Shown in pieces: positions 13,089 to 38,045 of a DNA stretch of 38,045 bases. Under the pieces are notes generated by a model, which had not been told where the DNA came from, did not search any database, and was given only the letters and a program-made list of their open reading frames with translations. Position 1 is the stretch's first letter. Every line of letters begins with the position of its first letter. The position numbers were made by a program, and so were the translations under genes. Source of the stretch: a virus (taxonomy: Duplodnaviria > Heunggongvirae > Uroviricota > Caudoviricetes); the IMG/VR virus record IMGVR_UViG_2534681663_000013, positions 1 to 38,045 of that record, one strand, 5' to 3'.

Positions 13089-13250
13089 ACTTTATGGTGT
13101 CATAAACTTAAATCTAGCGCCGGGTAGAACAAGTTAATCGAACGATGTAGCGGCCATTTAGGCGTTACAGAAAGAACAGAATTTTAAATTTATAGTGAAG
13201 CCGTTGCAGCAACTTTGTGGGGTGCAACCAACACTGAACAGGAAAAGAAA

Positions 13251-16987: not shown

Positions 16988-16996
16988 GACGCGAAT

Positions 16997-18160
16997 ATGT
17001 TCACGGTAAATCATCAAACCAACAGGATTAGTCCTGTTAGGACAAAGAAGTTCAGTGAGTTGGGCTTTACTGAGCGCAAGCATCTTCAGGAGTGGTTGGC
17101 ACACGAACCTTCCGCATTGGGTGAAGAGTTGTTGATTATTCAAAAAGAGTTCGATGGCTTTGATGACACCCGTGAACGATTAGATTTACTGGCACTGGAT
17201 AAAGATGGCAACTTGGTCATTATTGAAAATAAGCTGGACGACAGTGGCCGAGATGTGGTGTGGCAGGCCCTTAAATATGCCTCTTACTGTGCCAGTTTAA
17301 CCAAAGCACAAATAGTTGACATTTACCAGCAGTACTTAGACCGCTATGAGCCTGTAACAGCAGAGGTTGACCTGTTAAATGCCCCTGCAAGTGCCTCAGC
17401 TAGAATATGTGAGTTTTTGGATGCGCCCGATCTGGATGAGTTAAAGCTCAACCTGGGTAACAGCCAGCGCATTATGTTAGTTGCGGCAAACTTTCGCAAA
17501 GAAGTGACCAGCACCGCGCTGTGGTTATTGGGTCAAGGAATTAGCATTGCCTGCTTCAAAATCACGCCTTATTCACTGGGTGAACAGCTACTGATTAATA
17601 TTGACCAGATCATCCCAACGCCGGAAGCGAAAGAGTTGATGATCGGCATTAATGCCAAGGAAGCGGAAGAAAAAACCACCGAAGTGGTACTAAAAAACCG
17701 CCATACGGTGCGGCGCGAATACTGGGAGCGTGCCTTAGAGGCGTTTCAGAAAAGCGCTTGCCAACTCTATAACAACATTAGCCCAAGCAAAGATCATTGG
17801 TTATCAGCAGGCTCAGGGTTAAGTGGGTGTCCGTATAACCTGATATTTCTGCAAAAAGAGCTTCGAGTAGAGCTTTGGATCAGCCGTGGGGTTACCGAAG
17901 AGAATAAATACCTTTTTGACTTGTTGAGTCAGTCCAAACAGGACATTGAACATACTTTTGGTGCAGAACTTGAGTGGATGAGGCTGGATGAGAAGAAATC
18001 TTGCCGTATTCAGTTTTCGACCAAAGCTGATGGGTTTAACAAAGATACGTGGCCCCAAGCGGTTGCGTGGCACTTAGAGCAGATGACAAAGTTAGAAAAA
18101 GCCTTAAAAGGACCGCTGCAAAAAGCGGCTGAGGCAATGAAACAGAAGAATTTTGATTAA
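16997..18160 (+). CDS. Hypothetical protein with N-terminal PD-(D/E)xK nuclease-like motif, embedded between hsdS and hsdR
   Basis: 387 aa. Motif ...RERLDLLALDKDGNLVIIENKLDD fits the D-x(n)-ExK pattern. Same strand and tight spacing with the hsd genes. Confidence 0.6.
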   Translation: MFTVNHQTNRISPVRTKKFSELGFTERKHLQEWLAHEPSALGEELLIIQKEFDGFDDTRERLDLLALDKDGNLVIIENKLDDSGRDVVWQALKYASYCASLTKAQIVDIYQQYLDRYEPVTAEVDLLNAPASASARICEFLDAPDLDELKLNLGNSQRIMLVAANFRKEVTSTALWLLGQGISIACFKITPYSLGEQLLINIDQIIPTPEAKELMIGINAKEAEEKTTEVVLKNRHTVRREYWERALEAFQKSACQLYNNISPSKDHWLSAGSGLSGCPYNLIFLQKELRVELWISRGVTEENKYLFDLLSQSKQDIEHTFGAELEWMRLDEKKSCRIQFSTKADGFNKDTWPQAVAWHLEQMTKLEKALKGPLQKAAEAMKQKNFD

Positions 18161-18174
18161 GGGAACTTACAATT

Positions 18175-21100
18175 ATGGTCAGTCAAACCAATGAACAAGC
18201 ATTAGAGTCGGCCATTGAGAAATGTCTGGCTGGGATCAGTACTGAAGAGCTCAAAGAGGGGCTGAGTCAGCAGTCACTGGGTGCTGGATACTTCATTGGT
18301 GCTGCTAGTGACTTTAATATGCAATATGCCATTGATGAACGTTTTTTCTGGCAATTTCTGCAAAAGACACAAGAAGTAGAGTTGGCCAAACTGCAAAAGA
18401 ACAACCCCTCAGATTGGCAGCGTAAGTTACTCGAACGATTTGACCGATTGATTAAGAAGCATGGCATTCTTCATTTACTTAAGAAAGGGCTAAGCGTAGA
18501 CGATGCTCACTTCAATTTGCTCTATCCAGCCCCTTTGGCAAGTAGTAGTGAGAAGGTAAAGCAAAACTTTGCAGATAACGTGTTTAGTTGTACTCGCCAA
18601 GTGCGCTATTCCATGGTAAATCCCCTACAAGAAATCGACATGGTATTGTTTATCAACGGAATACCCTTGATAACGCTGGAGTTGAAGAACGCATGGACCG
18701 GGCAAACAGCACGTTATCACGGCCAAAAGCAGTATCGAGATGATCGGGATGCAACTCAGCCATTGCTGACCTTTGGCCGCTGCCTAGTGCATATGGCGGT
18801 CGATACCGACGAAGTGTATATGACCACCAAGTTATCAGGTAGCAGTACATTCTTCTTGCCGTTCAATAAAGGTCACAATCTTGGACAAGGCAACCCGCCG
18901 AATCCATCTGGCCATAAAACGGCATACCTATGGCAAGAAGTATTCACTAAAGACAGCTTGGCGAATATTATTCAGCATTTTGTGCGTCTGGATGGGTCAA
19001 GCAAAGATCCATTACCAAAGCGAACCCTGTTCTTTCCTCGATACCATCAATTGGATGTGGTGAGAAAATTAGTAGACCATGCCGCCCAGCACGGTGTCGG
19101 TCAGACTTACTTAATTCAACACTCAGCCGGTTCAGGTAAGTCTAACTCGATTACCTGGGCAGCTTATCAGCTAATTGAAACCTATCCTGCTTCGTCTGAT
19201 GTGGCAGGCGGAAAAAGCTTGGAGCAGCCGTTGTTTGACTCTGTGATTGTGGTCACCGATAGACGCCTATTGGACAAGCAGCTGCGGGATAACATTAAAG
19301 AGTTTTCTGAAGTAAAGAACATTATTGCCCCAGCGAATAAGTCTTCTGAGCTTAAGCAGGCGCTGGAGAATGGCAAAAAGATTATTATAACGACGATTCA
19401 GAAATTCCCGTTCATTATTGATGGTATCACCGATCTTAGTGACAAGCGCTTTGCAGTGATCATCGATGAAGCACACAGCTCACAGTCTGGTTCGGCGCAT
19501 GACAATATGAACCGAGCGATGGGCAAGTCTGAAGTCGAAGAGGCAGAAGATGCTCAGGATAAAATCCTTCAGGCGATGAGATCGCGTAAGATGCGCGGGA
19601 ATGCGTCGTACCTGGCATTTACAGCGACACCAAAAAACAGCACTTTGGAGAAATTTGGTCAACGCCAAGAAGATGGCTCTTAAAAGCCGTTTCACTTGTA
19701 TTCGATGAAACAAGCCATTGAAGAAGGCTTCATCTTGGATGTGCTGGCAAATTATACGACGTACAAAAGTTATTATGAGATTGAGAAATCAATTGCTGAT
19801 AACCCTGAGTTTGATACCAAAAAGGCGCAGAAAAAACTCAGAGCTTATGTAGAACGAAGCCAGCAAACAATTGATATCAAGGCAGAGATTATGCTGGAGC
19901 ATTTTGTTCCGCATGTCGTGAATACGAAAAAGCTCAAAGGTAAAGGTAAAGGAATGGTGGTCACTCAAAATATTGAGGCGGCCATTCGATACTACAAAGC
20001 GATAAGGCGAATACTTGAGGAGCAAGGAAACCCGTTTAAAGTTGCCATTGCTTTCTCAGGAACCAAAGAAGTTGATGGTATTGAATATACCGAAGCAGAT
20101 ATTAATGGTTTTGCCGAGTCAGATACCAAAGATATGTTTGATACCGATGAGTATCGACTTTTAGTGGTTGCTAACAAGTATCTGACTGGGTTTGACCAGC
20201 CTAAGCTTTGCGCCATGTATGTAGATAAGAAGCTCGCCAGTGTCTTGTGTGTTCAGGCGCTATCTAGGCTCAATCGCAGTGCACCTAAGCTAGGGAAGAA
20301 AACAGAAGACTTGTTTATCCTGGATTTTTTCAACTCGGTTGAAGATATTCAATCAGCATTCGATCCTTTCTATACAGCAACGTCATTGTCCCAAGCTACA
20401 GATATAAACGTACTGCACGAGTTGAAAGATGAAATGGACGATGTCGGTGTGTACGAGTGGTATGAAGTTGAAGACTTTGTGACGCGTTATTTCAAGAATG
20501 AAGACGCCCAAACACTCAGTCCAATCATTGATATTGCCGCAGCGCGGTTTGACCATGAACTAGATCTTGAAGCTGAAGCTAAAGTGGACTTTAAGATTAA
20601 AGCCAAACAGTTCGTTAAAATCTATGGGCAGATGGCTTCTATCATGCCTTATGAAATGGTCAGCTGGGAAAAACTGTTTTGGTTCCTGAAGTTTTTAATA
20701 CCGAAATTGAAAGTGGAAGATCCCGATGCTGATGCTATTGATGAGCTTCTCGATTCTGTCGATCTGAGTTCATACGGTTTGCAACGTGTGAAGCTTAACC
20801 ACAGCATTAAACTTAGTGACCAAGAAGCGGAGCTTGATCCTCAAAATCCGAACCCACGTGGGGTGCATGGCGGTGAAAAAGAAACTGACCCGCTGGATGA
20901 AATCATTCGCACATTTAATGAGCGATGGTTCCAGGGCTGGAGTGCCACACCTGAAGAGCAAAAGGTTAAGTTCGTGAACATCGCTGAAAGTATCCGCAAT
21001 CACCCTGACTTCGAATCGAAATACAAAAACAACCCAGATCCCCATAATCGAGATTTGGCCTTCGAAAAAATGCTCAAGGAAATCATGCTGCAACGCCGTA

Positions 21101-21192
21101 AAGATGAACTTGAGCTCTACAAGTTGTTCGCAGGAGATTCAGCATTTAAAGCCTCGTGGACGCAAAGTATGCAACGAATGGTGGGTAGGTAG
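18175..21192 (+). pseudogene. hsdR: Type I R-M restriction subunit HsdR interrupted by an in-frame TAA at 19681-19683
   Basis: ORFs 18175-19683 and 19696-21192 share one frame. Helicase motifs I (SAGSGKSNS), II (IIDEAHSS) and III (FTATPKNS) lie before the stop, and the conserved segment KQAIEEGFILDV follows directly after it. Confidence 0.8.
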
Positions 21193-21584
21193 AAAGGAGT
21201 GATGGTTTGCTGAAGGCAGTCTCAGAGTTATTAGGTGGGTCACCAGGCCTGAAAGGACGTCAAATTGCCAAGGAGCTGGGGCTGGTCAGCTGTCAGCAGC
21301 CGACTCACCGGTATAAACGTGGTGGTCATGAACATGTTGCTATCCCTAACTACCTTGAACGGCAGTTCGCCGTGACCGAGCCAAATCAGGTGTGGTGCGG
21401 TGATGTGACCTATATCTGGACGGGTAAGCGCTGGGCGTACCTCGCCGTTGTTCTCGACCTGTTCGCAAGAAAACCAGTGGGCTGGGCCATGTCGTTCTCG
21501 CCGGACAGCAGGCTCACCATGAAAGCGCTGGAAATGGCATGGGAAACCCGTGGTAAGCCCGGCGGGGTGATGTTCCACAGCGAT
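21193..21584 (+). mobile_element. IS3-family (IS911-like) transposase OrfB remnant, truncated after the HSD of the DDE core
   Basis: Translation ...[65 protein letters not shown] matches IS911-type OrfB as recalled. Homology stops at ~21584, with no orfA or downstream orfB. Confidence 0.7.
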
Positions 21585-21589
21585 AGTAA

Positions 21590-23040
21590 TAATGCCGATG
21601 TCAGTCTTTACCACCACTTAGTTTGCCGTTTAACCAGATTGGTGTGATTACTGATGCAGTGAAGACCTTCCCGCATCCTGACTCACACAGCGATCGACCT
21701 TTTGTGTCCTGCCCTGGACCCGTCGGTTGCCGGAAGCGCCTTCATGCGAGGCATCTCCTCACCGATGCGCGTGACTCAAGAAGGGCCTGACGGCTTGTCT
21801 CGTTACTGTCCTGTCCGGGTTATCTGTCTGGAGATTCAACTCTGTTTCCTCACAGGAGCTCTGTCATGGTTGATAAAGTTACCGAAGCTGCCGTTGTGGG
21901 TGGCGTGGATACACATAAAGATTTGCACGTTGCCGCTGTCGTAGATCAGAACAATAAAGTCCTTGGGACTCAGTATTTCTCCACAACACGACAAGGTTAC
22001 CGGCAGATGCTGGCATGGATGACCTCGTTTGGGACATTAAAGCGAATTGGTGTTGAGTGCACAGGTACCTATGGTTCCGGTTTGCTTCGTTATTTTCAGA
22101 ACGCCGGGTTAGAAGTTCTTGAGGTGACTGCTCCAGACCGGATGGAGCGACGCAAACGGGGTAAAAGTGACACAATTGATGCTGAATGTGCCGCTCATGC
22201 AGCATTCTCAGGCATCAGGACAGTTACTCCCAAAACGCGTGATGGCATGATTGAGTCCCTGCGGGTATTAAAAACTTGCCGAAAAACAGCAATATCAGCC
22301 CGCAGAGTCGCTCTCCAGATTATCCATTCAAATATTATCTCTGCCCCGGATGAATTACGTGAACAGCTCAGAAATATGACGCGCATGCAGCTCATCAGGA
22401 CCCTGGGTTCCTGGAGACCTGATGCCAGTGAATACCGCAATGTAACCAACGTTTATCGCATTTCATTAAAGTCCCTTGCCCGACGCTATCTCGAGTTACA
22501 TGACGAAATCGCTGATCTGGATGTCATGATTGCGGCAATTGTCGACGAGTTGGCACCTGAGCTGATTAAACGTAATGCTATCGGATACGAAAGCGCTTCA
22601 CAGTTGCTGATCACTGCCGGAGACAATCCTCAACGGTTAAGATCAGAATCAGGATTTGCGGCACTGTGTGGTGTCAGCCCGGTCCCCGTTTCTTCTGGAA
22701 AAACGAACCGTTACCGACTTAATCGTGGTGGAGATCGTGCTGCAAATAGTGCACTTCACATCATCGCCATCGGACGCTTACGAACTGACGCAAAAACAAA
22801 GGAATATGTCGCCAGGCGTGTAGCCGAAGGACATACAAAAATGGAAGCGATACGCTGTCTAAAGCGATATATCTCCCGCGAAGTTTACACGTTACTGCGC
22901 AATCAAAACAGGCGGATCAACAGTATCCCGATAACAGCTTGACTCTTAGAAGGGCGTCCAGGGCAGTCATTAGGTTCGTTTACAACAAATCGGGTGATGT
23001 ATACGGCGTTCACGCGAAGAACGACAGCTACCTTTTCGAT
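21590..23040 (+). mobile_element. IS110-family insertion sequence (ends approximate)
   Basis: Single DEDD-type transposase gene with ~280 bp of non-coding sequence upstream and ~100 bp downstream. Boundaries inferred from where IS911 homology stops and the next gene starts. Confidence 0.55.
21866..22942 (+). CDS. IS110-family (DEDD) transposase
   Basis: N-terminal RuvC-like motif VVGGVDTHKDLHVAAVVD and the typical C-terminal IS110/IS116/IS902 transposase domain (...SESGFAALCGVSPVPVSSGKTNRYRLNRGGDRAANSALH...). Confidence 0.9.
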   Translation: MVDKVTEAAVVGGVDTHKDLHVAAVVDQNNKVLGTQYFSTTRQGYRQMLAWMTSFGTLKRIGVECTGTYGSGLLRYFQNAGLEVLEVTAPDRMERRKRGKSDTIDAECAAHAAFSGIRTVTPKTRDGMIESLRVLKTCRKTAISARRVALQIIHSNIISAPDELREQLRNMTRMQLIRTLGSWRPDASEYRNVTNVYRISLKSLARRYLELHDEIADLDVMIAAIVDELAPELIKRNAIGYESASQLLITAGDNPQRLRSESGFAALCGVSPVPVSSGKTNRYRLNRGGDRAANSALHIIAIGRLRTDAKTKEYVARRVAEGHTKMEAIRCLKRYISREVYTLLRNQNRRINSIPITA

Positions 23041-29328: not shown

Positions 29329-29383
29329 GCCAGATAAGGCCATTATTTGTGGCCTTAAACAATTTGTTTAATTAGTGGTGTAA

Positions 29384-29587
29384 TTATTGGAATCCCAGGC
29401 GAACTAAATCCATTGGGCAGAACAGATCTTCCACACCTTCGATAGACACGCAGTCAGAGCGGCGTAATTGTTCTTCTGATTTGCCTTCTCCGCAGATTTC
29501 CTTGATGACTCCCGTTGCACCATTCGTTGCCACCATCACTCGGCTGCCGGTAGTGATAGTGTTACGGTTGCGATCATAGGTCTTCAT
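29384..29587 (-). CDS. Hypothetical 67-aa protein
   Basis: Strong RBS on the minus strand (GAAAGGAGGAAACG-ATG). Confidence 0.5.
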   Translation of the reverse strand: MKTYDRNRNTITTGSRVMVATNGATGVIKEICGEGKSEEQLRRSDCVSIEGVEDLFCPMDLVRLGFQ

Positions 29588-29775
29588 CGTTTCCTCCTTT
29601 CACATGGGTCAAATCAGGTTTCAAAAATTGCCGTTTTCCATGTAGGTGCGATTTGCAAAATCTCAAGCGCCAAAACAAATTGTTTTCACCATCTTGTTAT
29701 TCAATTAACCCGTAAAGTTGACCAGTACCGTAATAAATACCACTGTTTATATGTGCAGTATTGCGAGGCGAGCAA

Positions 29776-30041
29776 TGGGCAGCAAGAATTCTAAATATGT
29801 GATCGTCTATAGGGGCGAAGCACTCAAGCACCTAATACCCGGACAGTTCGTTTTCTTCCAACGTGAAAAAGAATACGGTGGGGGGTTCTGGCTTGGTAAA
29901 ACGCATGAGGATGGGTTCGAATTTGTGCTGGAGCAACCCACTTCACTAAGTTACGGGCTTGCGTATCTGATCAGATTGTCGAGTGTCGAAGCCAGGTATA
30001 TGGAGTTTGTTGATGACATAGACGACTTCAAACTCACCTAG
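29776..30041 (+). CDS. Hypothetical small protein (start taken at ATG 29776; ORF track starts at 29718)
   Basis: GAGG 6 nt upstream of ATG 29776. Confidence 0.45.
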
Positions 30042-30082
30042 TCATCCCTTAAACATCTTGTTTTCTGCCTTTCGTTATTTGA

Positions 30083-30114
30083 GATAATAATACCAATAAG
30101 AAAACAAATTGTTT
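30083..30114 (+). promoter_or_regulatory. Promoter module A: -10-like GATAAT (30083-30088) followed 13 bp later by palindrome AAACA-AAT-TGTTT (30102-30114), then RBS AAGGAG
   Basis: Same architecture recurs at 32868-32899, 35385-35416 and 35869-35901. Confidence 0.5.
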
Positions 30115-30126
30115 AAGGAGTTAATC

Positions 30127-30363
30127 ATGTTCGGAACCGCGAAAGAAATTATCGAAAAGCTGGAGAACTACCCAGAAGACGAGCCGCTGCTGATGGTGAT
30201 GGGGCACAAGGAAGATGGAGGTGAAGGGCGACCAGACCTGACTGACGAACAGTGCGTTCAGGTTTTGCGAAAAATCAAAGAGTGCCATGACGCCAGCGTC
30301 GGCGTGAATTGGGATGTCATTTCTGACACGGCCAACATTCTGTTTCCAAAGGAGAAGGCATGA
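30127..30363 (+). CDS. Hypothetical small protein
   Basis: RBS AAGGAG at 30114-30119, ATG at 30127. Stop overlaps the next start (ATGA). Confidence 0.55.
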   Translation: MFGTAKEIIEKLENYPEDEPLLMVMGHKEDGGEGRPDLTDEQCVQVLRKIKECHDASVGVNWDVISDTANILFPKEKA

Positions 30364-30680
30364 TGCTGAAAATCACCGAATCGTATAAGACGGCGGTGAT
30401 CAGCACCGCCCACGTCACGGCAGCGGATTCAGAACGGCTACCCATTGCCTGCTTCGACCCACTTACTGATCGCGGGTTGAATTGGGTACACGGTACACAG
30501 TATGGATGGATTGTTCGTGCTGGAATGCGAGGGAATGACTGGAAGGAAGAATTGCGTGATTACGGCATTTCCCAAGAGGCGATCTCTAACATACAGGCCA
30601 TACGGGATGCCGGGTATGATTCGGTACAATTTGACTGTGATGCGGAGCTGGTGGATGGAATGCCAGCATGGGATTGGTAG
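30360..30680 (+). CDS. Hypothetical 106-aa protein, translationally coupled to the preceding ORF
   Basis: ATGA overlap with the upstream gene. Confidence 0.55.
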   Translation: MMLKITESYKTAVISTAHVTAADSERLPIACFDPLTDRGLNWVHGTQYGWIVRAGMRGNDWKEELRDYGISQEAISNIQAIRDAGYDSVQFDCDAELVDGMPAWDW

Positions 30681-30695
30681 ATATAACTACTAGCA

Positions 30696-31322
30696 ATGGC
30701 GGGAATAATTACCTGGAAAGTTGATATCATATACCCGCTTGTATTTCAAAATGGAATGGATGTAATGGAAATCGATACTTTAGAAAAAAAATCAGTTAAA
30801 AACCTCTACGCGTGGCTTATAGCAATACTGCCGTTTGTTGTCAGCGTCCCCCCTGCTGAGTACGACAATTACGTTATGGTGATTTCGTTCGTCATTGGGC
30901 TTGGACTGCTGGTCGCCGATCGCATGAATTTGACTGAGGCAGGCTATGAGCCACCATCATTCTTATGTGGGTTCTTTATCCCCCCTGTGTATCTCTGGAA
31001 ACGAGCGACGGTTCTTGGAAGTAACCGACTGCTGTTTATCGTATGGATTGTTGCCTTTGCTGCATCATTTTTCGTGTATAGCTTCAACGCAGATTCAGCG
31101 CTTGAAGAAGCTGCTTGCCCTATAGTTACCACTATTCTGAAAGAAAATAACGGTTCAGAAGCATCTAAATGCATGAAGGTAACAATTCAGGACAAAGTGA
31201 CGGACAAGTTCTACAAAGCCACGGCTACACTGGATAACGGTAATGACATTAACATCACTATCGAAATGATCGGTGACGAGAATTTCTACGTTCGCGTGCC
31301 TAATTACTACCTAAACGACTAA
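30696..31322 (+). CDS. Hypothetical integral membrane protein (start uncertain, alternatives at 30756 and 30765)
   Basis: Several hydrophobic helices (LYAWLIAILPFVVSV, VMVISFVIGLGLLVA, LLFIVWIVAFAASFFVY). Confidence 0.5.
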   Translation: MAGIITWKVDIIYPLVFQNGMDVMEIDTLEKKSVKNLYAWLIAILPFVVSVPPAEYDNYVMVISFVIGLGLLVADRMNLTEAGYEPPSFLCGFFIPPVYLWKRATVLGSNRLLFIVWIVAFAASFFVYSFNADSALEEAACPIVTTILKENNGSEASKCMKVTIQDKVTDKFYKATATLDNGNDINITIEMIGDENFYVRVPNYYLND

Positions 31323-32931
31323 CGGCTGCAACTCGTTGACATTGGCGGTCACAAATTGAGGATTTCTATAAGAGTCCGTTGATCGCCACTTCCCCCACCT
31401 CTCCAACCTACCCCAGCCCAGGGGTGACAAGGCATTTAAGCCAATTACACCCATAAGAAAACAAATAAATAACACGTCAACGAAAAGTCAACGCTTTCCT
31501 CTGATTTGGTCTAAAAAGTTGACGTTTTCGCAAGCCATCTCTTATACCCAAAATCCTGCGCACCAGAATCCATCTCCCTGCGACCAAAACGTCAAAAACG
31601 ACTCGTGATATCACTCAAAAACAGAAGCGCTCAGAAGCGCTCCCGTTGCGTTATATTGGGCATCTAAACAAGTTGTTTTCAGGCATAAGAAAACAAGTTA
31701 ACAACCCCCACAGGAAACCCAGAGACGCCATTACCCACAATCCCGGAAACACCCACCTCTTCCTGTCAGACTACCGAAAAGACCCACCTCATTGCCCCAG
31801 GCTACAGACCACCCACCTAATATTCCCAGGCAACCGAGAACGCGGTTCGCACGCGCAAACCCCGATACGTCATTACCCAATACACGGAGAAGAACAGCCA
31901 GAACGAAACCCCGGACAAACCCAGACAAGAACAGGAGCCGTCACAATCTCGTTTACCCACCATTACCCCGAAAGAGAGCGCAAATTCCTGAATAGCAGGG
32001 AACGCCATTACTTCATATGCGGAGAACAACTAAAGCGCCCTACTGCCATTACCCACACTTTCATCATTTCACGTAAACGAAGAGAAAAGCGCCCCTGCCA
32101 TTACTCCATACACGGAGAAGAACACTCACCAAAACGACGAGAACAACCCAGACGAAAACACAGAGAAGAACCACCTCAAGAAGAACGAAACCACATATGC
32201 CGGTAGAAAGAACAAACCACCCATTTCACCCAAAGGAATACTCGCCGTATAGAGCGTTATCAGAGGGAAGGTTTATGCCCACATAAGAGAGAAAATTCGT
32301 GGGAGGTATAAGTGGGAAGGGAAGGAGGGGTATCGCCACTTTTTCCGCATAAATTCAAGCCATAGTTTTCATCCCCCGTAACGTCCCTTTCCACCCCTTC
32401 GGTCAGCCTTCGGGCCATCCGGGAAAGCTATGTCCCTTTTCAGGAACGGGAGCGTCGCCGCAGGGAAAAGGCTTGAGGTTTTCAGGGAAACGGTGGGAAT
32501 CCCGCTATACGAACCGGGGAAAGGCTGGCTGCCGGTCGGGAAACGGGTACATCCCGGTACAGAGTGAGGGACGACTGCGGGAGCGGTGCGGGAAATCTTC
32601 GGGAGTGCGCCTTACTCTTCACTCGCCTGAAAATCGCGGGGGAGTGTCATTCCCTCTCGTGCAGCTACTGGACTCCATTCTGCCAGACCATCATTGGGTC
32701 TCAAGCTATTTCAGTAGGTTTTCGGGGAGAAGGATATTCTGCCCACCAGCCCCGTGGCGCGCGTAGAGCAGAATATCGTAAATACTGGCTCCCGTGTCGT
32801 TCCCGGATATTCACTGCCCAGCCTGGCTTTCACGACATAAAATCCTTTTCCGCCTTTGTCTTATTGCGATAATAACACCAACAAGTAAACAACATGTTTA
32901 GACGTTATATAAACGAAGTGAGGATGAAGAG
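31323..32931. repeat. 1.6-kb non-coding, repeat-dense region with strong strand compositional asymmetry
   Basis: No convincing ORF; the only long ORF (31646-32206) is low complexity. Repeats include ACCCACCT x3, a ~27-bp repeat GCCATTACYCMATACACGGAGAAGAAC x2, a GGGAAACGG-type motif at least 6 times, and the palindrome AAACAAGTTGTTT at 31666. Confidence 0.6.
32868..32899 (+). promoter_or_regulatory. Promoter module B: GATAAT (32868-32873) plus palindrome AAACA-ACA-TGTTT (32887-32899)
   Basis: Conserved block GCGATAATAACACCAACAAG shared with modules A, C and D. Confidence 0.5.
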
Positions 32932-33150
32932 ATGATTAAGATGCCTGTGACGGTTGAGGTGTGGGGCGTGGATTCCCTGGCTGAGTGTCTGGATGCAGTG
33001 GGGCCGGAGTTGTACCGCAAGTTGTGGTCGTTCGTCCCGGCAGAAGGGGAATCGCCCAAAGGGAAGGATATCTGGCACCTGCTGAGTGAAGATGAAAAGC
33101 GGGAGCTGGTGGACGCGGTACACAGCGAGTTCCCGGGCGACGAAGATTAA
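32932..33150 (+). CDS. Hypothetical 72-aa acidic protein
   Basis: RBS GAGGATGAAGAG-ATG. Followed by a terminator hairpin. Confidence 0.55.
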   Translation: MIKMPVTVEVWGVDSLAECLDAVGPELYRKLWSFVPAEGESPKGKDIWHLLSEDEKRELVDAVHSEFPGDED

Positions 33151-33157
33151 GAGTGAG

Positions 33158-33180
33158 GCCACCAGCACGGTGGCTTTTGT
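33158..33180 (+). terminator. Rho-independent terminator (GCCACC-agcac-GGTGGC + TTTTGT)
   Basis: Stem-loop followed by a T-run. The same stem family recurs at 35256-35271 and 35722-35745. Confidence 0.6.
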
Positions 33181-33289
33181 CGCTATTAACCTCCGGGGCA
33201 GCGCAGCACCGTAACGATATACTTTGTGGCCGTTTTCTTACTGGTATTGTTTACGCAATTCAGAAAACAACATGTTTAAGGATTGCGTT

Positions 33290-33619
33290 ATGTTTGCAAA
33301 TATCGACATCAACCAAATCAAGAAAATGACTCAAAAAGAGTTTGACCAGTTTTATGAGTTAGAAGGTTGGTCTTCCACGCTGATCAATTCGCGCTGGGTG
33401 CTTGAGCTGATGACTCGTGATGATGCTCCTGCTTTGATTATTTGCGACCTGGGTGATGATGCTGACTTTATGGATATGAGCGAATTTTGTGTGGATACAT
33501 ACAACCGCAGCCAGAAGTACTACTTCACATGCGATAGCGAGAATGACGTGATTTCTAAGCTCTATCTTCACCTTGTCCAGCATTGGGACGTTCAGGAGTT
33601 CCTTGATGTATTCGCGTAA
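33290..33619 (+). CDS. Hypothetical 109-aa acidic protein
   Basis: Palindrome AAACA-ACA-TGTTT at 33265-33277, then AAGGA and ATG 33290. Confidence 0.55.
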   Translation: MFANIDINQIKKMTQKEFDQFYELEGWSSTLINSRWVLELMTRDDAPALIICDLGDDADFMDMSEFCVDTYNRSQKYYFTCDSENDVISKLYLHLVQHWDVQEFLDVFA

Positions 33620-33779
33620 ACCCAACCAAAGCCAGCACCGCCTGCTGGCTTAACTTCTCTGTAGCCGCAGGGAAGAACCACCTTTAGATAATTCATGTGC
33701 CTGAGCAATATGCTTTGTAGCCGTTTTTACACTGGTATTATTTACGCCATTGAGAAAACAATTTGTTTACGGAGTGGTG

Positions 33780-34091
33780 ATGAATACTTCATTGGTGCTG
33801 GGTCTTGCTGAAGGTCAGGAGAGAAAAGAAAAACCAACCTTAATGGGGCATCTCACATTGCTGGATATCGTAGCGAATGGGACTTCTATCCGTCTGTTTC
33901 GTGAAAAAGCCATTACCTTCGACGCGGGCAATTTTACGCGCTATGTGATGGTAGTTCGTCGCCAGCGTGGAAGAGGGTGGATGTCGGTCCAGAAAATGTG
34001 GCCAGAGGACCAGCTTGAACTGGCGCTGATGGAAGCCAACCGTGTCGCCCAACAAGAGATCCAACGAGCGTCTGTTCAGGCGGTAGCTTAA
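33780..34091 (+). CDS. Hypothetical 103-aa protein
   Basis: Palindrome at 33756-33768, GGAG 6 nt upstream of ATG 33780. The upstream 60 bp are near-identical to the region upstream of 33290. Confidence 0.55.
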   Translation: MNTSLVLGLAEGQERKEKPTLMGHLTLLDIVANGTSIRLFREKAITFDAGNFTRYVMVVRRQRGRGWMSVQKMWPEDQLELALMEANRVAQQEIQRASVQAVA

Positions 34092-34125
34092 ACATGTGCA
34101 AGCAGTAGTTAGTCGAATGTACGAC

Positions 34126-34154
34126 AGCCCCGCCAATCCTTCGGGGCTTTTTTG
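34126..34154 (+). terminator. Rho-independent terminator (AGCCCC-loop-GGGGCT + TTTTTT)
   Basis: GC stem followed by a T6 run. Confidence 0.7.
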
Positions 34155-34180
34155 TATTGTAAGTACTTACTTATGATAAT
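34152..34180 (+). promoter_or_regulatory. Sigma70-like promoter: -35 TTGTAT, 17-bp spacer containing perfect palindrome GTAAGTACTTAC (34159-34170), -10 GATAAT
   Basis: Canonical spacing. RBS AAGGAGAG and ATG 34213 follow. Confidence 0.55.
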
Positions 34181-34212
34181 AAAATTAAAAATTAAACACT
34201 AAGGAGAGTGAA

Positions 34213-34608
34213 ATGACCGTTAAACGCGAAAATCTGACCCTGGATATGTATTATGCATCAGAGACGGAAAATGGAGACAAAGTTGCAAAAATTACAATTG
34301 TGCTACGCGATAATGCCTCCGGCGAAGAAGTTCACACCAGTACCTTAACTCGCACCGGCGAGGCCACAAAGGGAAAATATTCGGTGCGTTACCAAAGCAT
34401 CAGTAATGCTTCTGACCCTTTACTGATAAAACTGGAAACTCATTTCCGTGGCGCGGATCAGACGTTGTTTGAAAATTTGATGAAAAAGGTCGATGCGGTT
34501 TATACATCGAGTTTAAATACCAATAGTACCTGGATGGGACAACACGGTCTGCGAATAATCTCCGGCGAAAAGATCGACACCATTGTCCCTGAAAGCGTAT
34601 TCGCTTAA
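34213..34608 (+). CDS. Hypothetical 131-aa protein
   Basis: Strong RBS, with promoter upstream and terminator downstream. Confidence 0.6.
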   Translation: MTVKRENLTLDMYYASETENGDKVAKITIVLRDNASGEEVHTSTLTRTGEATKGKYSVRYQSISNASDPLLIKLETHFRGADQTLFENLMKKVDAVYTSSLNTNSTWMGQHGLRIISGEKIDTIVPESVFA

Positions 34609-34617
34609 TCCTCTTTG

Positions 34618-34646
34618 AATGGCGCGTAAACCGCGCCATTTTCTTA
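34618..34646 (+). terminator. Rho-independent terminator (AATGGCGCG-taaa-CCGCGCCATT + TTCTT)
   Basis: 10-bp stem followed by a T-rich tract. Confidence 0.7.
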
Positions 34647-34725
34647 TTCCCGATAACAATTTGTTTTCTGCCTTATCTGATTTGTGAAAATGATTTCACT
34701 GAAGCAACTTAATAAGGATACCATC

Positions 34726-35100
34726 ATGGGACTTGATATCTATATCGAGACGCAGCCTAAAAACGATCTGAATAACGAGGCATCCAGAAAGCAGGTTGCT
34801 TACTTCCGTAAGTTCAATGCGCTCGTTGGGTGGATGGAGCGCAACGTAGGTGAAGTCGAAAATTGTGAGCTTTTAGAATTAACGATGAATGACATTTGTT
34901 TTCTGAAGGCTCATTTGATGCACATAAACGAAAGTAATTGCGAAGTGTACTTACCTACCCGGGAAGGTTTTTTCTTCGGCAGTCAGGAGTACGATGAAGG
35001 TTACTGGCATGACGTGGATAAGCTGAAAAAACTTGTGGAAGACCTGATCAGGAACCACGACTTTCACAATAACAGACTGACGTTCCGTGCCTGGTGGTAA
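34726..35100 (+). CDS. Hypothetical 124-aa protein (ORF track starts at 34684; ATG 34726 has the better RBS)
   Basis: AAGGA 7 nt upstream of ATG 34726. Confidence 0.55.
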   Translation: MGLDIYIETQPKNDLNNEASRKQVAYFRKFNALVGWMERNVGEVENCELLELTMNDICFLKAHLMHINESNCEVYLPTREGFFFGSQEYDEGYWHDVDKLKKLVEDLIRNHDFHNNRLTFRAWW

Positions 35101-35102
35101 AT

Positions 35103-35246
35103 ATGGGCGATTTCAAGAAACGCCTGAAGGAGAGAGCCGAGATGGTCAGAAAGCGAAACGCCTCTTCTGTCATAAGATACGCAAGGCAGTTTAGTCGCAA
35201 CAACAAATCAGTTGAGGAAAAGATCCTTAGCGTAATCGGGCGATAA
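35103..35246 (+). CDS. Possible 47-aa basic protein (MGDFKKRLKERAEMVRKRNASSVIRYARQFSRNNKSVEEKILSVIGR)
   Basis: Starts 3 nt after the preceding stop and is followed by a hairpin element. Below the ORF-track length cut-off. Confidence 0.3.
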   Translation: MGDFKKRLKERAEMVRKRNASSVIRYARQFSRNNKSVEEKILSVIGR

Positions 35247-35384
35247 TTATTAAGGCCACCAGCATTGGTGGTCTTAAATGACTTTTAATAACCGAAGGTT
35301 AGTTTGAAACCTGGCTATCAACTTCCAGAACCTTTCTTGTGTATTCAGCCTGTATTAACTTCTTTTATGCCTTATCTACACTGC

Positions 35385-35416
35385 GATAATTACACCAACA
35401 AGAAAACAATATGTTT
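35385..35416 (+). promoter_or_regulatory. Promoter module C: GATAAT (35385-35390) plus palindrome AAACA-ATA-TGTTT (35404-35416)
   Basis: Same architecture and shared flanking sequence as modules A, B and D. Confidence 0.5.
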
Positions 35417-35429
35417 ACGCAGTGAGGAT

Positions 35430-35717
35430 ATGCTCATGACTGATTTCACCATTACCCCTAAAGCACAAAATGTATTCCTTGAATCATGGCTGGACTTGCC
35501 GGAAACAGAACAGCAAGAAATGGATCATGTGGAATATGACGAGCAGGTAAGCACGCGATTCTTCCACTTTGAGGGCTGCGTTTACGACATTGCCGACTTC
35601 ATGCGAGATGACCGCTTCCCTGAATGGCACGCAAGCTATCCACTAAACGCCTTCGCCATGCTGATGATCCGTGTGGATGATTCAGGGGATACCATCGACA
35701 TCGGTCTGCTCCACTAA
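35430..35717 (+). CDS. Hypothetical 96-aa acidic protein
   Basis: GAGGAT upstream of ATG 35430. Followed by hairpin AAGGCCACCA-atgc-TGGTGGCCTT. Confidence 0.55.
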   Translation: MLMTDFTITPKAQNVFLESWLDLPETEQQEMDHVEYDEQVSTRFFHFEGCVYDIADFMRDDRFPEWHASYPLNAFAMLMIRVDDSGDTIDIGLLH

Positions 35718-35847
35718 AGAGTAAGGCCACCAATGCTGGTGGCCTTAAATGACCATCCTGTTTCCCGCAGGCTAAAAACACCAACCTCTTACCTCCAGGC
35801 AACCGACAAACCCACCTGTTCCCGTCCGGCTACCGCAACTTTCCACT

Positions 35848-35901
35848 TTGACGCCTTATTCGTACAACGATAATTAACACCAACAAGAAAACAATTTGTT
35901 A
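35848..35901 (+). promoter_or_regulatory. Promoter module D: -35 TTGACG (35848-35853), -10 GATAAT (35869-35874), palindrome AAACA-ATT-TGTTA (35889-35901)
   Basis: 15-bp spacer between the hexamers. RBS AAGGAATTAATC and ATG 35922 follow. Confidence 0.55.
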
Positions 35902-35921
35902 TTTACGATAAGGAATTAATC

Positions 35922-36404
35922 ATGAATTTTATCGCTACTGTAAACGCACCCGCACATGGCAATATCGCTGTAACGTTCTCTGATATTGAAAAACGAGTAC
36001 TTGGTGCATGGCGCGACAATGAGACGGTAGAACTGTCAGCACAAGAAAAATGCATTATTGCACGCGACATCATTTGCAAACGTCGTTACTCACGGGTAAT
36101 TGAGAAAGCGTATGTCGCAAATTCTGGCTTCGGAACATTTGTCTTCCCGGTACGCTCCGGGCGATTCTGCCAGTCCAAGCTGATTGAGTTCGCTACGCAG
36201 ATTTCTGTCTGGATTAAAACTCAATCGTCGTTCAAATTTTCCGACGATGAAGCAGTATCGCAGGGGATGCGGATCGCCAACAATGCAATAAAATGCAAAA
36301 ACATTACGTATGCCGCTGGCGTTGACACATGGAAACTGTTTTGCGCTAACTTTATGCTGAATGTATACGCAAGCAACCGCATCCACATCCTTGATGGCGT
36401 GTAA
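35922..36404 (+). CDS. Hypothetical 160-aa protein
   Basis: Promoter module D upstream and a terminator downstream. Confidence 0.6.
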   Translation: MNFIATVNAPAHGNIAVTFSDIEKRVLGAWRDNETVELSAQEKCIIARDIICKRRYSRVIEKAYVANSGFGTFVFPVRSGRFCQSKLIEFATQISVWIKTQSSFKFSDDEAVSQGMRIANNAIKCKNITYAAGVDTWKLFCANFMLNVYASNRIHILDGV

Positions 36405-36412
36405 CTGAGAAG

Positions 36413-36436
36413 AGGGCCAGAAACGGCCCTTTCTCT
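36413..36436 (+). terminator. Rho-independent terminator (AGGGCC-agaaac-GGCCCT + TTCTCT)
   Basis: GC stem followed by a T-rich tract. Confidence 0.6.
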
Positions 36437-36995
36437 ATAGCCACCAGCTGCCGCAGGGAAATTTTCAGAAACGGCGAGGAACGCATTCATGAGCCGACGG
36501 GAAACGGCCAAGATTTTTTCGGGAAACGGCGGGGGTCGCCTTTATGTAGAAAACTGAGCGGGAGAAACCCGGAATCGCGCCAGAAATTGCGTAGCGGCGC
36601 TGGGGTAGCGCTGGTGGGGGTTTCAGCCCCTGGGCCATCCAGATAGCTTTCGCTATGTGATTATGTGAATCCGTGGGTAAATCACTGTAAGCGCGTACAC
36701 GTTGCCCAACGTGGCAATCATATGCGAGCGGATACAAAACAACACAAAGAGCCGATCCGCGCCGACAAATAAACGCGGATCACATAGCAAGACTAAAAGC
36801 CAATGATTAACCATACTCTATAGCGCAATATAACGCGTTTTAAGCGCGTTAATGTGTTAAGTAATGTGTATGTACTAACAAGGATATAAAAGCGCGTCTA
36901 TGGCGTTATTTTGGTGCTTATTTTTATGTTGTTGGAGCGAGTTAAAGACAATAAAAAACGCGCTAATGATGGCGCGTTATGGTGGGAGTATTGGA

Positions 36996-37309: not shown

Positions 37310-37813
37310 TTACGCTTTGAAAGCATCAGCCAGATAGTTATAAAAATCATTTTTAACGAAGCGATATTGCTGTGATCCGTTTTTCGCTGCACCCATTCCT
37401 TTGATTTTTTCGACCAGTCCCAGACGTTCGCAAAGATTGATAAGCTGGTTGGCTTGAGTGTATCCTGCGTCTAATTTTATTTCGTTGGCTTTTTTCGCTT
37501 TATTCATTAAATCGAAAACAGCGCCATTGGTGAACGTGTCGATCTCGTCGTTAATCATATCGATTAAAGCGAATACACGAGATCCGGACATATCAGCGAC
37601 GGAATAAACACACTTTCCAGCTTTAATAGATTTAACCAGATAAACCAGTTTTTCGAGTGAATAGCTATTGGTCATAGCTTCACGGAAAAACGCTTCAGGT
37701 GCTTGTTTACTTGCTTTAATCGCGTAGTAAAAGATACCAGCTAATTTCTCATCATTAACAGCGTTTAAAACGTTGTTGGTGAAGTATGCTAGTTTGGTAG
37801 ACGCTGCAAGCAT
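37310..37813 (-). CDS. Hypothetical 167-aa protein (AT-rich gene)
   Basis: Long minus-strand ORF in a low-GC segment, with a terminator downstream. Confidence 0.55.
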   Translation of the reverse strand: MLAASTKLAYFTNNVLNAVNDEKLAGIFYYAIKASKQAPEAFFREAMTNSYSLEKLVYLVKSIKAGKCVYSVADMSGSRVFALIDMINDEIDTFTNGAVFDLMNKAKKANEIKLDAGYTQANQLINLCERLGLVEKIKGMGAAKNGSQQYRFVKNDFYNYLADAFKA

Positions 37814-37833: not shown

Positions 37834-38045
37834 GGTGATGCTGCCAACTTACTGATTTAGTGTATGATGGTGTTTTTGAGGTGCTCCAGTGGCTTCTGTT
37901 TCTATCAGCTGTCCCTCCTGTTCAGCTACTGACGGGGTGGTGCGTAACGGCAAAAGCACTGCCGGACATCAGCGCTATCTCTGCTCTCATTGCCGTAAAA
38001 CATGGCAACTACAGTTCACTTACACCGCCTCTCAGCCCGGTAAGC
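37834..38045 (+). mobile_element. IS1, left end (partial; continues beyond the window)
   Basis: GGTGATGCTGCCAACTTACTGATTTAGTGTATGATGGTGTTTTTGAGGTGCTCCAGTGGCTTCTGTTTCTATCAGC matches the IS1 IRL and insA leader as recalled. Confidence 0.9.
37889..38045 (+). CDS. insA: IS1 InsA, 3'-partial (runs off the window)
   Basis: GTG start, translation (M)[50 protein letters not shown] matches InsA. Confidence 0.85.

What the first reader, a model, noticed from the sequence alone, without database searches (positions are those of the whole stretch)
29350..36440. Array of small unknown genes driven by a reiterated promoter with an AAACA-N3-TGTTT palindrome (10 sites)
About a dozen small plus-strand ORFs (60-210 aa), all without assignable function, each have their own promoter and most have their own terminator. 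The palindrome AAACA-N3-TGTTT occurs at 29357, 29673, 30102, 31666, 32887, 33265, 33756, 34655, 35404 and 35889, almost always just 5' of the RBS. In four modules it lies 13-14 bp downstream of GATAAT inside a shared block GCGATAATnACACCAACAAGAAAACAAnnTGTTTA. Terminator hairpins are also reiterated (GGCCACCA...TGGTGGCC at 33158, 35256 and 35722). This looks like one regulon, built by module duplication, controlled by a single DNA-binding protein. Such arrays in phages and plasmids often encode anti-defence or host-takeover functions.
Basis: seen in the sequence. Interest (0 to 1): 0.7.

Follow-up and report, generated by a model that had tools for sequence, protein, structure and literature searches.

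The report
Replicon-wide operator palindrome in phage-plasmid
The repeated 13-bp palindrome is real and is most likely the operator of a still unidentified repressor that silences lytic and accessory promoters across the whole SSU5 family of phage-plasmids, not only this array of small orphan genes.

Summary
The window is a degenerate SSU5-like phage-plasmid of E. coli. The true motif is a 6-1-6 palindrome, AAACAAnTTGTTT, with a free centre base. It has 11 sites with at most one mismatch, against 0.13 expected, all between 29357 and 35901. The sites fall into two fixed positions around extended -10 sigma-70 promoters. One lies 13-14 nt downstream of the -10 (centre about +14). The other lies 19 nt upstream (centre about -38). 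When both are present they are exactly 51 bp apart.

The motif is not specific to the array. SSU5 and Cyrano each carry about 18-21 sites, nearly all intergenic. They sit ahead of terS, parA, dnaB, nrdB, ant, a methylase-like gene and the small-gene array. In 54 orthologous promoters the -10 and both arms are invariant while the centre base varies. Published RNA-seq of a Cyrano lysogen shows the genes behind these promoters at background.

The best reading is a dispersed repressor-operator regulon, like L5 stoperators, P1 C1 or RK2 KorA/KorB. The regulator is unidentified. The array proteins are mostly acidic orphans, and an anti-defence role is untested. This is a new member of a known kind, of moderate interest.

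The parts
29357..29369 (+). Palindrome site AAACAATTTGTTT. It is an orphan or class II-like site directly after hairpin 29336-29356, between the convergent LprI-like gene and ydfZ.
29673..29685 (+). Palindrome site AAACAAATTGTTT in the divergent region between ydfZ (-) and the 88-aa gene. No clear -10 lies at the standard distance.
30051..30063 (+). Class II site (AAACATCTTGTTT + TCTGCCTT), 19 nt upstream of the -10.
30080..30088 (+). Extended -10 element TGAGATAAT of the DUF1380 operon promoter.
30102..30114 (+). Class I site, 13 nt after GATAAT and 12 nt before the start codon.
29775..30041 (+). 88-aa orphan gene (phrog_2100, unknown function).
30127..31322 (+). Three-gene unit: a 78-aa gene annotated DUF1380 (30127-30363), a 106-aa DUF5983 gene (30360-30680), and a 208-aa gene with hydrophobic stretches (30696-31322).
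31666..31678 (+). Palindrome site at the left edge of the conserved non-coding stretch, followed by a half-site copy at 31690-31702.
31330..32870 (.). 1.5-kb non-coding region conserved across the family. It has a C-rich, G-poor half with 30-nt tandem repeats, then a G-rich half with GGGAAACGG repeats. Its function is unknown.
32865..32899 (+). Promoter-operator cassette: TGCGATAAT, a 13-nt leader ACACCAACAAGT, then the class I site at 32887-32899.
32932..33150 (+). 72-aa acidic orphan gene (pI 4.4).
33157..33174 (+). Hairpin GGCCACCAGCACGGTGGC followed by TTTTG. It looks like an intrinsic terminator.
33242..33277 (+). Cassette: TGGTATTGT, a 14-nt leader, then the class I site at 33265-33277. 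The leader can pair with the Shine-Dalgarno region.
33290..33619 (+). 109-aa acidic orphan gene (pI 4.2).
33733..33768 (+). Cassette: TGGTATTAT, a 14-nt leader, then the class I site at 33756-33768.
33780..34091 (+). 103-aa basic orphan gene (pI 9.8), with terminator hairpin 34127-34147 followed by TTTTTTG.
34213..34608 (+). 131-aa orphan gene. Its promoter (TTGTAA-17-TAAAAT / TATGATAAT at 34172-34180) has no palindrome. Terminator at 34621-34637.
34654..34666 (+). Class II site TAACAATTTGTTT (one mismatch) + TCTGCCTT, 19 nt upstream of TGTGAAAAT (34683-34691).
34726..35246 (+). A 124-aa gene (34726-35100) plus a 47-aa very basic ORF (35103-35246). The Cyrano orthologue of the 47-aa ORF is expressed in the lysogen.
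35254..35273 (+). GGCCACC hairpin without a T-run.
35382..35416 (+). Cassette: TGCGATAAT, leader TACACCAACAAGA, then the class I site at 35404-35416.
35436..35717 (+). 93-aa acidic orphan gene (pI 4.1), followed by hairpin 35725-35744.
35779..35840 (+). C-rich 30-nt repeats (CACCnACCT...CCAGGCnACCGA) upstream of the last promoter. They are conserved in orthologues.
35845..35901 (+). Promoter of the 160-aa gene: -35 TTGACG, -10 GATAAT (35869-35874), and a degenerate class I site at 35889-35901 (right arm TTGTTA).
35922..36404 (+). 160-aa basic gene conserved in the whole family, with a confident model but an orphan fold. Terminator at 36414-36429.

Best explanation
The 13-bp palindrome AAACAAnTTGTTT is a DNA operator for a dimeric, element-encoded transcriptional repressor of the SSU5 phage-plasmid family. 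The promoters it sits on are strong host sigma-70 promoters of the extended -10 type (TGnGATAAT, some with a TTGAC -35).

One operator lies at about +7 to +19. There a bound protein would block open-complex formation or promoter escape, and would also act as a roadblock to read-through from the upstream module. A second operator, in inverted flank orientation, can lie at about -44 to -32, over the -35 region. When both are present they are 51 bp apart (about five helical turns, same face) and bracket the -10. This allows cooperative binding.

In the plasmid-prophage state the repressor keeps the regulon off. The regulon comprises replication and nucleotide-metabolism genes, ant, the head of the late operon and the mosaic array of small genes. 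On induction or fresh infection all of these fire at once from host RNA polymerase.

Shown: the motif, its positions, its replicon-wide and family-wide distribution, its conservation, and the silence of the downstream genes in a lysogen. Inferred: that a protein binds it, that it represses, and which protein it is. The array genes are then early accessory genes. Their function remains unknown.
For: - Enrichment: there are 11 sites against 0.13 expected in the window, and 15 against 0.21 in SSU5 50-100 kb.
- Symmetry: both arms carry about 1.4-1.7 bits per position and the centre base 0.0 bits. This is the signature of a dimer on DNA. A 6-bp stem with a 1-nt loop cannot form in RNA.
- Fixed register to the promoter: in 74 family sequences a -10-like hexamer lies 12-14 nt upstream in 51 cases and 18-19 nt downstream in 38. 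All six close pairs are exactly 51 bp apart.
- Variable register to the gene: the distance to the start codon ranges from 11 to 150 nt.
- Class II sites lie upstream of the transcription start and after terminators, so they are unlikely to act as RNA.
- Phylogenetic footprint over 54 distinct orthologous promoters (proteins 66-100% identical): -10 identity 1.00, arms 1.00 and 0.93, centre 0.41, spacer 0.78, downstream leader 0.66.
- Whole-replicon regulon: sites lie ahead of terS, parA, dnaB, nrdB, ant, the DUF4942 gene, an HD hydrolase gene and the array in SSU5 and Cyrano.
- Published RNA-seq of the Cyrano lysogen (PMC9928086, S1 Table): median background is 9.8. Thirteen of sixteen genes behind these promoters read 5.7-12.9. 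The orthologue with the degenerate operator (CYRAN_111) is leaky at 25.5.
- One-mismatch variants never show compensatory changes.
Against: - No regulator was identified.
- No candidate regulator gene has the palindrome in its own promoter.
- parA (49.8) and the helicase gene (21) are expressed in the lysogen despite a site.
- Nearly all lytic genes are at background in the lysogen, so the silence is not specific to genes with the motif.
- Part of the fixed -10-to-operator spacing may only reflect common descent of duplicated cassettes. Several sites outside the array lack a clear -10 at that distance.
- SSU5 was isolated as a plaque-forming phage, yet it keeps all its sites.
Confidence: 0.6

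Rival explanations
1. The motif acts in the mRNA leader. It is a translational operator just 5' of the Shine-Dalgarno sequence, bound by an RNA-binding repressor. The obvious candidate is the FljA-family protein encoded just beyond the array in SSU5, Cyrano and related plasmids. Salmonella FljA blocks translation of fliC mRNA.
For: - SSU5_121 and its E. coli homologues match Pfam Flag1_repress at 3e-81, and they are present in all 39 family loci checked.
- FljA is reported to prevent translation of fliC mRNA (PMC2652032).
- Six class I sites lie 11-32 nt before start codons.
- The fliC leader of Salmonella and Citrobacter contains ACATCAAGTTGTAATTG, which shares CAAGTTGT with the motif.
- Two modules have an outer stem that pairs the leader with the Shine-Dalgarno region, with the palindrome at the tip and compensating differences between the two paralogues.
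Against: - Class II and orphan sites are not in leaders.
- The spacing is fixed relative to the -10, not to the start codon.
- The hairpin itself is marginal. Four of six leaders fold no better than shuffles.
- Variants are never compensatory.
- The FljA-like gene is barely expressed in the lysogen (18, against a background of 9.8). It rises in conditions where several array genes also rise.
- The fliC resemblance is a post hoc match of 7 specified bases.
Confidence: 0.12
2. The palindrome is the binding site of an activator or RNA-polymerase-appropriating factor made early in lytic growth. Alternatively it is the site of a conserved host protein. In both cases the promoters are silent in lysogens for lack of the factor, not because of a repressor.
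For: - The site at about -38 is where class II-type activators sit.
- The motif also heads the late operon, with two sites before terS.
- No lysogeny-expressed DNA-binding protein could be tied to it.
- All hosts are Enterobacterales.
Against: - Most sites lie downstream of the -10, which is an unusual place for an activator.
- The promoters already have TGn plus a near-consensus -10, and some have a TTGAC -35, so they should fire unaided.
- From my own knowledge, the motif matches no E. coli or Salmonella transcription factor consensus. KdgR is nearest, with AAACA-N1-TGTTT, which has different spacing. The LexA box CTGT-N8-ACAG is absent.
Confidence: 0.12
3. The conserved promoter and terminator boundary sequences mainly serve as homology 'linkers' for shuffling gene cassettes in a mosaic accessory region. 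The palindrome is carried along by duplication and has no dedicated binding protein.
For: - The cassettes are paralogous, at 72-79% identity over 43-64 nt.
- The array is strongly mosaic. Only 21 of 774 plasmid records cover at least 80% of it, and phage records cover 15-46%.
Against: - Within the conserved cassettes the palindrome arms are invariant while the centre base and neighbouring bases drift.
- The motif also occurs at non-paralogous promoters with different leaders, such as dnaB, nrdB, terS and parA.
Confidence: 0.08

Closest known systems
Stoperators and operators of Cluster A mycobacteriophages (L5 gp71, Bxb1 gp69)
   Same: There are tens of copies of a 13-bp repressor site spread through the genome in short intergenic regions. 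They silence lytic genes in the lysogen, partly by blocking elongation (PMC9283540 abstract). Lytic derivatives keep the sites.
   Different: Stoperators are asymmetric, orientation-dependent and bound by a monomer. Here the site is a perfect 6-1-6 palindrome placed in register with the -10, often as a 51-bp pair. The host clade, the sequence and (presumably) the protein are unrelated.
Phage-plasmid P1 C1 repressor with dispersed operators
   Same: A plasmid-prophage has one repressor that controls many operators scattered around the replicon, in front of replication, antirepressor and accessory genes (my own knowledge).
   Different: P1 operators are asymmetric 17-mers (ATTGCTCTAATAAATTT) overlapping the promoter hexamers. 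No C1 homologue was noticed here, and no test was made.
RK2/IncP KorA (12-bp) and KorB (13-bp) palindromic operators
   Same: These are short perfect palindromes repeated at many promoters of one replicon. They have defined position classes relative to the promoter and show cooperative repression (my own knowledge).
   Different: The sequences differ (GTTTAGCTAAAC and TTTAGCSGCTAAA). KorB is a ParB protein, whereas the ParB-like genes of Cyrano are silent in the lysogen (5.0 and 9.5), which argues against them as the repressor.
FljA / fliC mRNA translational repression
   Same: An FljA homologue is encoded next to the array. The sites are close to Shine-Dalgarno sequences. The CAAGTTGT core is shared with the fliC leader.
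   Different: Many sites are not in leaders. There is no evidence that the protein binds them. See the first rival explanation.

Membership tests
Sigma-70 extended -10 promoter | TGn immediately upstream of a -10 hexamer with A at position 2 and T at position 6 | tested here: met
   TGAGATAAT, TGCGATAAT (twice), TGGTATTGT, TGGTATTAT and TGTGAAAAT are present. 35866 has AACGATAAT without TG, but has a TTGACG -35. Transcription starts were not mapped.
Dispersed repressor-operator regulon (L5, P1 or RK2 type) | The same short site is repeated at many promoters or intergenic regions across the replicon, far above chance | tested here: met
   11 sites against 0.13 expected in the window. SSU5 and Cyrano carry 18-21 sites each, nearly all intergenic. 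There are 163 exact sites in 726 kb of family DNA.
Dispersed repressor-operator regulon (L5, P1 or RK2 type) | The sites overlap the RNA polymerase footprint or lie between the promoter and the gene | tested here: met
   Sites lie 11-14 nt after the -10 or 18-19 nt before it. This is by sequence only.
Dispersed repressor-operator regulon (L5, P1 or RK2 type) | A cognate repressor encoded by the element and expressed in the lysogen | tested here: inconclusive
   Candidates are listed. The 92-aa SSU5_123/CYRAN_117 protein is expressed at about 12 times background, but a DNA-binding fold is not supported. All candidates co-occur with the motif.
Dispersed repressor-operator regulon (L5, P1 or RK2 type) | Target genes are off in the lysogen and derepressed on induction | tested here: inconclusive
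   Targets are at background in Cyrano lysogen RNA-seq. The same is true of nearly all lytic genes, and no induction time course is available.
LexA/SOS box | CTGT-N8-ACAG | tested here: not met
   The motif is AAACAA-N1-TTGTTT.
Structured cis-regulatory RNA (Rfam family or stable leader hairpin) | A match to a curated family, or folding better than shuffles with compensatory changes | tested here: not met
   No Rfam match reaches a gathering score. Four of six leaders fold no better than shuffles. Variants are never compensatory.
Intrinsic terminators | A GC-rich hairpin directly followed by a T-run | tested here: met
   This is met at 33157-33174, 34127-34147, 34621-34637 and 36414-36429. It is not met for the GGCCACC hairpins at 35254 and 35725 or for 29336-29356.
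Known anti-defence protein families (Ocr, ArdA, ArdB/KlcA and others) | Sequence or fold similarity to a characterised member | tested here: not met
   Ten array ORFs scanned against Pfam and PHROGs, plus the 160-aa ORF against Pfam only, gave only DUF5983 and 'unknown function'. The 160-aa model has no PDB or BFVD neighbour. The other proteins were not modelled.
Ribbon-helix-helix repressor (for SSU5_123) | An N-terminal beta-strand followed by two helices, with profile or fold similarity to Arc, CopG, ParG or omega | tested here: not met
   AF2 pLDDT is 64, with residues 1-12 unstructured. Foldseek finds nothing. hhalign probability is 0.45%. Only a pattern seen by eye remains.

The most novel reading that the evidence does not exclude
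The palindrome core (CAAnUUG with A/U-rich flanks) is read in mRNA leaders by the FljA-family protein encoded next to the array. Salmonella's flagellar phase-variation repressor FljA would then belong to, or derive from, a family of phage-plasmid global post-transcriptional repressors. The phage-plasmid copy could in turn silence host flagellin.
Probability: 0.07. Interest if true: 0.8.

Novelty: new member of a known kind. Interest (0 to 1): 0.5.

Why it matters
SSU5-like phage-plasmids are common in clinical Enterobacterales; 774 plasmid records matched this array alone. They are reported to carry resistance genes (PMC9600943, PMC12217456). I found no description of their regulatory circuit in the searchable literature.

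A single invariant operator at essentially every early promoter gives a direct experimental handle. It can be used to fish out the master regulator by pull-down. It defines the early regulon from sequence alone. It could be used to build reporters for induction. It also marks the small-gene array as co-regulated early cargo worth screening against defence systems.

Tried and rejected
- Literature: eight searches (SSU5, pHCM2, phage-plasmid, repressor, operator, palindrome, DUF1380, stoperator) found no description of this motif. The primary FljA papers are not held.
- Rfam: no family matched.
- RNA hairpin: it is weak and shows no covariation.
- Exact 16-specified-base (17-mer) scan of viral contigs: 71 of 120 loci are SSU5-related and carry nearly all multi-site cases. 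The rest are single, apparently chance hits.
- XRE repressor CYRAN_45 as the binder: rejected. Its own switch region lacks the palindrome and has GGTAAGnnCTTACC instead. The gene is also absent from SSU5.
- HicB-like HTH protein (window 8730-9290): it is the antitoxin of a HicAB pair in Cyrano, and there is no palindrome nearby.
- ParB-like proteins: they are silent in the lysogen.
- SSU5_123 as a ribbon-helix-helix protein: not supported.
- 160-aa protein as an autoregulated repressor: the model is confident, but it has an orphan fold with no DNA-binding resemblance.
- Co-occurrence profiling of candidates: all are universal in the family, so the test is uninformative.
- Autoregulation test: no palindrome lies in the promoter regions of the minus-strand candidate genes.

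Full report
**What the window is.** The stretch 29350-36440 matches SSU5-like phage-plasmids. The best phage records are Escherichia phages PhiR41_1 and Cyrano and Salmonella phage SSU5, at 88-91% identity but only 36-46% coverage. There are 774 plasmid records from Klebsiella, Escherichia, Enterobacter, Yersinia and Salmonella. The best reaches 98.8%, and only 21 records cover at least 80% of the stretch. The array is therefore a mosaic region of a widespread family.

The window itself is a degenerate derivative. It carries the family's CobS-like and DNA polymerase genes, a Rep3 initiator, a type I R-M system, fragments of Tn3, IS3 and IS110, and an IS1 end at its right edge.

**Checking the observation.** AAACA-N3-TGTTT occurs nine times exactly against 0.04 expected. 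A matrix built from 32 sites of the window and SSU5 shows that the real motif is a 6-1-6 palindrome, AAACAAnTTGTTT. Each arm position carries 1.0-1.7 bits (most 1.4-1.7) and the centre base carries none. There is a weaker asymmetric flank, aAGA on one side. With this motif and at most one mismatch the window has exactly 11 sites against 0.13 expected. All lie within 29357-35901 and none elsewhere.

The shared block after GATAAT, the reiterated GGCCACC hairpins and the paralogy of the cassettes are confirmed. The ORFs have no Pfam or PHROG function, apart from DUF5983 and an annotated DUF1380. They form about eight or nine transcription units rather than one per gene.

**Anatomy.** Sites occupy two positions.

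- Class I sites (30102, 32887, 33265, 33756, 35404, 35889) follow an extended -10 (TGnGATAAT or TGGTATTrT) by 13-14 nt. They are centred near +14 if transcription starts about 7 nt after the -10.
- Class II sites (30051, 34654) read AAACAAnTTGTTTTCTGCCTT and lie 19 nt upstream of the -10, centred near -38, usually just after the upstream terminator.

The AGA/TCT flank always faces the -10, so a pair forms an inverted arrangement bracketing the -10.

Across 74 family sequences (726 kb, 163 exact sites), a -10-like hexamer lies 12-14 nt upstream in 51 cases and 18-19 nt downstream in 38. All six pairs closer than 200 bp are exactly 51 bp apart. The same holds in relatives only about 70% identical. 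By contrast, the distance from a class I site to the start codon ranges from 11 to 150 nt.

**Scope.** The motif is not specific to the array. SSU5 has 14 exact and about 7 one-mismatch sites with the extended consensus (15 against 0.21 expected in its 50-100 kb half). All lie between annotated genes. They sit ahead of terS (two sites), parA, dnaB, the CobT-like gene, SSU5_063, nrdB, ant, SSU5_094, the DUF4942 gene, an HD hydrolase gene and the small-gene array.

Cyrano shows the same pattern with 18 sites (annotation). So does the 52-kb plasmid pRHB27-C18_3. In an exact 17-mer scan of viral contigs, 71 of 120 loci were SSU5-related and held nearly all multi-site cases.

**Conservation.** For the promoter of the 160-aa gene I aligned 54 distinct upstream regions from 77 upstream regions (76 loci plus the window), whose proteins are 66-100% identical. 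Mean column identity is 1.00 for the -10 and 1.00 and 0.93 for the two arms. It is 0.41 for the centre base, 0.78 for the spacer and 0.66 for the stretch between the operator and the ATG. In the window's clade the right arm of this particular site is degenerate (TTGTTA plus a 6-nt insertion).

**DNA or RNA.** Several points argue for recognition of double-stranded DNA by a symmetric dimer.

- The centre base is free and both inner arm bases are conserved. As RNA this would require an impossible 1-nt loop.
- Class II and orphan sites lie outside leaders.
- The register is kept to the -10, not to the start codon.
- One-mismatch variants are never compensatory.
- Four of six leaders fold no better than shuffled sequence.

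The two TGGTATT modules do have an extra outer stem that pairs the leader with the Shine-Dalgarno region, with compensating differences between the paralogues. An added RNA-level layer in those two modules is possible. No Rfam family matches.

**Expression evidence.** The S1 Table of PMC9928086 gives RNA-seq of the Cyrano lysogen in LB, with a median background of 9.8. Values for genes directly behind palindrome promoters are as follows.

| Gene | Value |
|---|---|
| terS | 7.1 |
| CYRAN_47 | 7.8 |
| CYRAN_58 | 5.7 |
| nrdB | 12.9 |
| CYRAN_85 | 7.0 |
| CYRAN_87 | 7.1 |
| CYRAN_93 | 6.3 |
| CYRAN_101 | 7.5 |
| CYRAN_105 | 12.8 |
| CYRAN_106 | 12.2 |
| CYRAN_108 | 5.7 |
| CYRAN_110 | 6.7 |

The exceptions are parA (49.8), the helicase gene (21) and CYRAN_111 (25.5). 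CYRAN_111 is the orthologue of the 160-aa gene, and its operator is the degenerate one.

Near-consensus sigma-70 promoters that are silent in the lysogen fit repression. The caveat is that almost all lytic genes are silent there.

**The regulator.** I could not identify it.

- The XRE repressor that the Cyrano authors flagged (CYRAN_45) sits in an integrase island absent from SSU5. Its switch region has a different palindrome.
- The HicB-like HTH protein of the window belongs to a toxin-antitoxin pair.
- The ParB-like genes are silent in the lysogen.
- The FljA-family protein (Pfam 3e-81) is barely expressed in the lysogen.
- The conserved minus-strand operon next to the array encodes a 92-aa protein (SSU5_123/CYRAN_117), expressed about 12-fold above background. 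Its family is restricted to these elements. By eye it resembles a ribbon-helix-helix protein, but this failed testing: AF2 pLDDT is 64, Foldseek finds no match, and hhalign probability is 0.45%.
- SSU5_120 and SSU5_130 look like winged-helix proteins by eye only. The window's 37310-37813 ORF looks by eye like an IS1-truncated copy of SSU5_120.
- All candidates co-occur with the motif in all 39 full-length loci.
- None has the palindrome in its own promoter region.

**The array proteins.** Seven of the eleven translated correctly have pI 4.1-5.3; the twelfth, the 47-aa ORF, is very basic (pI 11.3 for its Cyrano orthologue). The 160-aa protein gives a confident model (pLDDT 88) with no neighbour in PDB or BFVD. 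Nothing links any of them to a known anti-defence family. The idea remains a reasonable but untested guess. It is supported only by their acidity, their early-type promoters and the mosaic nature of the region.

**Comparison with known systems.** The closest analogues in logic are the following.

- The operators and stoperators of Cluster A mycobacteriophages: 13-bp sites in tens of copies that silence the lytic genome (PMC9283540).
- The dispersed C1 operators of phage-plasmid P1 (my own knowledge).
- The KorA and KorB palindromes of RK2 (my own knowledge).

This case differs in sequence, in being a perfect palindrome locked in register with an extended -10, in the 51-bp bracketing pair, and in having no recognisable regulator.

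**Verdict.** This is a real, strongly non-random and conserved regulatory element. The mechanism most likely is transcriptional repression at DNA operators (about 0.6). The regulator's identity and the function of the array genes remain open. It is a new member of a known kind, of moderate interest.

Noticed in passing
window 31330-32870: A 1.5-kb stretch inside the array has no convincing ORF, yet is conserved at 66-93% over its full length (81% in SSU5) in Salmonella, E. coli and Klebsiella relatives. The first half is C-rich and G-poor (GC skew about -0.2), with three tandem 30-nt repeats (31750-31840) and three copies of CATTACnCnATACACGGAGAAGAACA. The second half is G-rich, with GGGAAACGG repeats that recur at 36499-36529. 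It could be an origin, a Rho-loading or R-loop region, or a long non-coding RNA. It is unexplained.
   Followed up: partly
window 35779-35840 and orthologous loci L127-L202: Tandem C-rich 30-nt repeats (CACCCACCTCTTACCGCCAGGCTACCGAA) lie between the upstream hairpin and the promoter of the 160-aa gene. They are conserved across the family (mean identity 0.86). G-poor RNA of this kind would suit Rho loading, but this was not tested.
   Followed up: partly
L004:46897-47343 (-) (SSU5_121); L002:11896-12420 (-): An FljA-family protein (repressor of phase-1 flagellin, Pfam 3e-81) is encoded just beyond the array in every family member checked. It might silence host flagellin in lysogens. The Salmonella and Citrobacter fliC leader contains CAAGTTGT, the core of the palindrome (L260-L269).
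   Followed up: partly
window 35103-35246; Cyrano CYRAN_109: The Cyrano orthologue of a 47-aa very basic ORF (pI 11.3) that follows the 124-aa gene is expressed 6-fold above background in the lysogen. The gene just upstream of it is silent. This suggests its own promoter or a stable 3' RNA fragment ending at the GGCCACC hairpin.
   Followed up: no
window 10193-12532: A RecA-like gene is interrupted by an intein with a LAGLIDADG homing endonuclease domain (Pfam RecA 7e-36, LAGLIDADG_3 6e-18, Intein_splicing 2e-11).
   Followed up: no
window 13215-21192: A low-GC type I restriction-modification cargo holds hsdM, hsdS, a DUF4268 gene and hsdR. hsdR is split into two ORFs (18175-19683 and 19696-21192), whereas it is one 3018-nt gene in pRHB27-C18_3. 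The restriction subunit is probably inactivated here.
   Followed up: partly
window 37836-38045 and 37310-37813: The window ends in what I recognise from memory as an IS1 terminal sequence (no search was run). By eye, the IS cuts off the N-terminus of the SSU5_120 homologue. The FljA-like gene, the 92-aa gene and the helicase gene that follow in relatives are therefore outside the window.
   Followed up: partly
window 639-2399, 21207-21647, 21866-22942: A Tn3-family transposase fragment, an rve integrase-core fragment and an IS110-family transposase show that this is a rearranged, probably defective, phage-plasmid derivative. No structural genes lie in the window.
   Followed up: no
Cyrano L203:42574-42826: The switch region between the XRE repressor CYRAN_45 and CYRAN_46 contains a different palindrome, GGTAAGTGCTTACC, plus related half-sites. 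This is likely the operator of that integrase-linked module.
   Followed up: no
Cyrano CYRAN_43 (L203:40268-40822, -): This gene is expressed about 720-fold above background in the lysogen (7084 normalised reads). It encodes an acidic 184-aa protein without Pfam hits, next to the tRNA cluster. It has no counterpart in SSU5 at that position.
   Followed up: no
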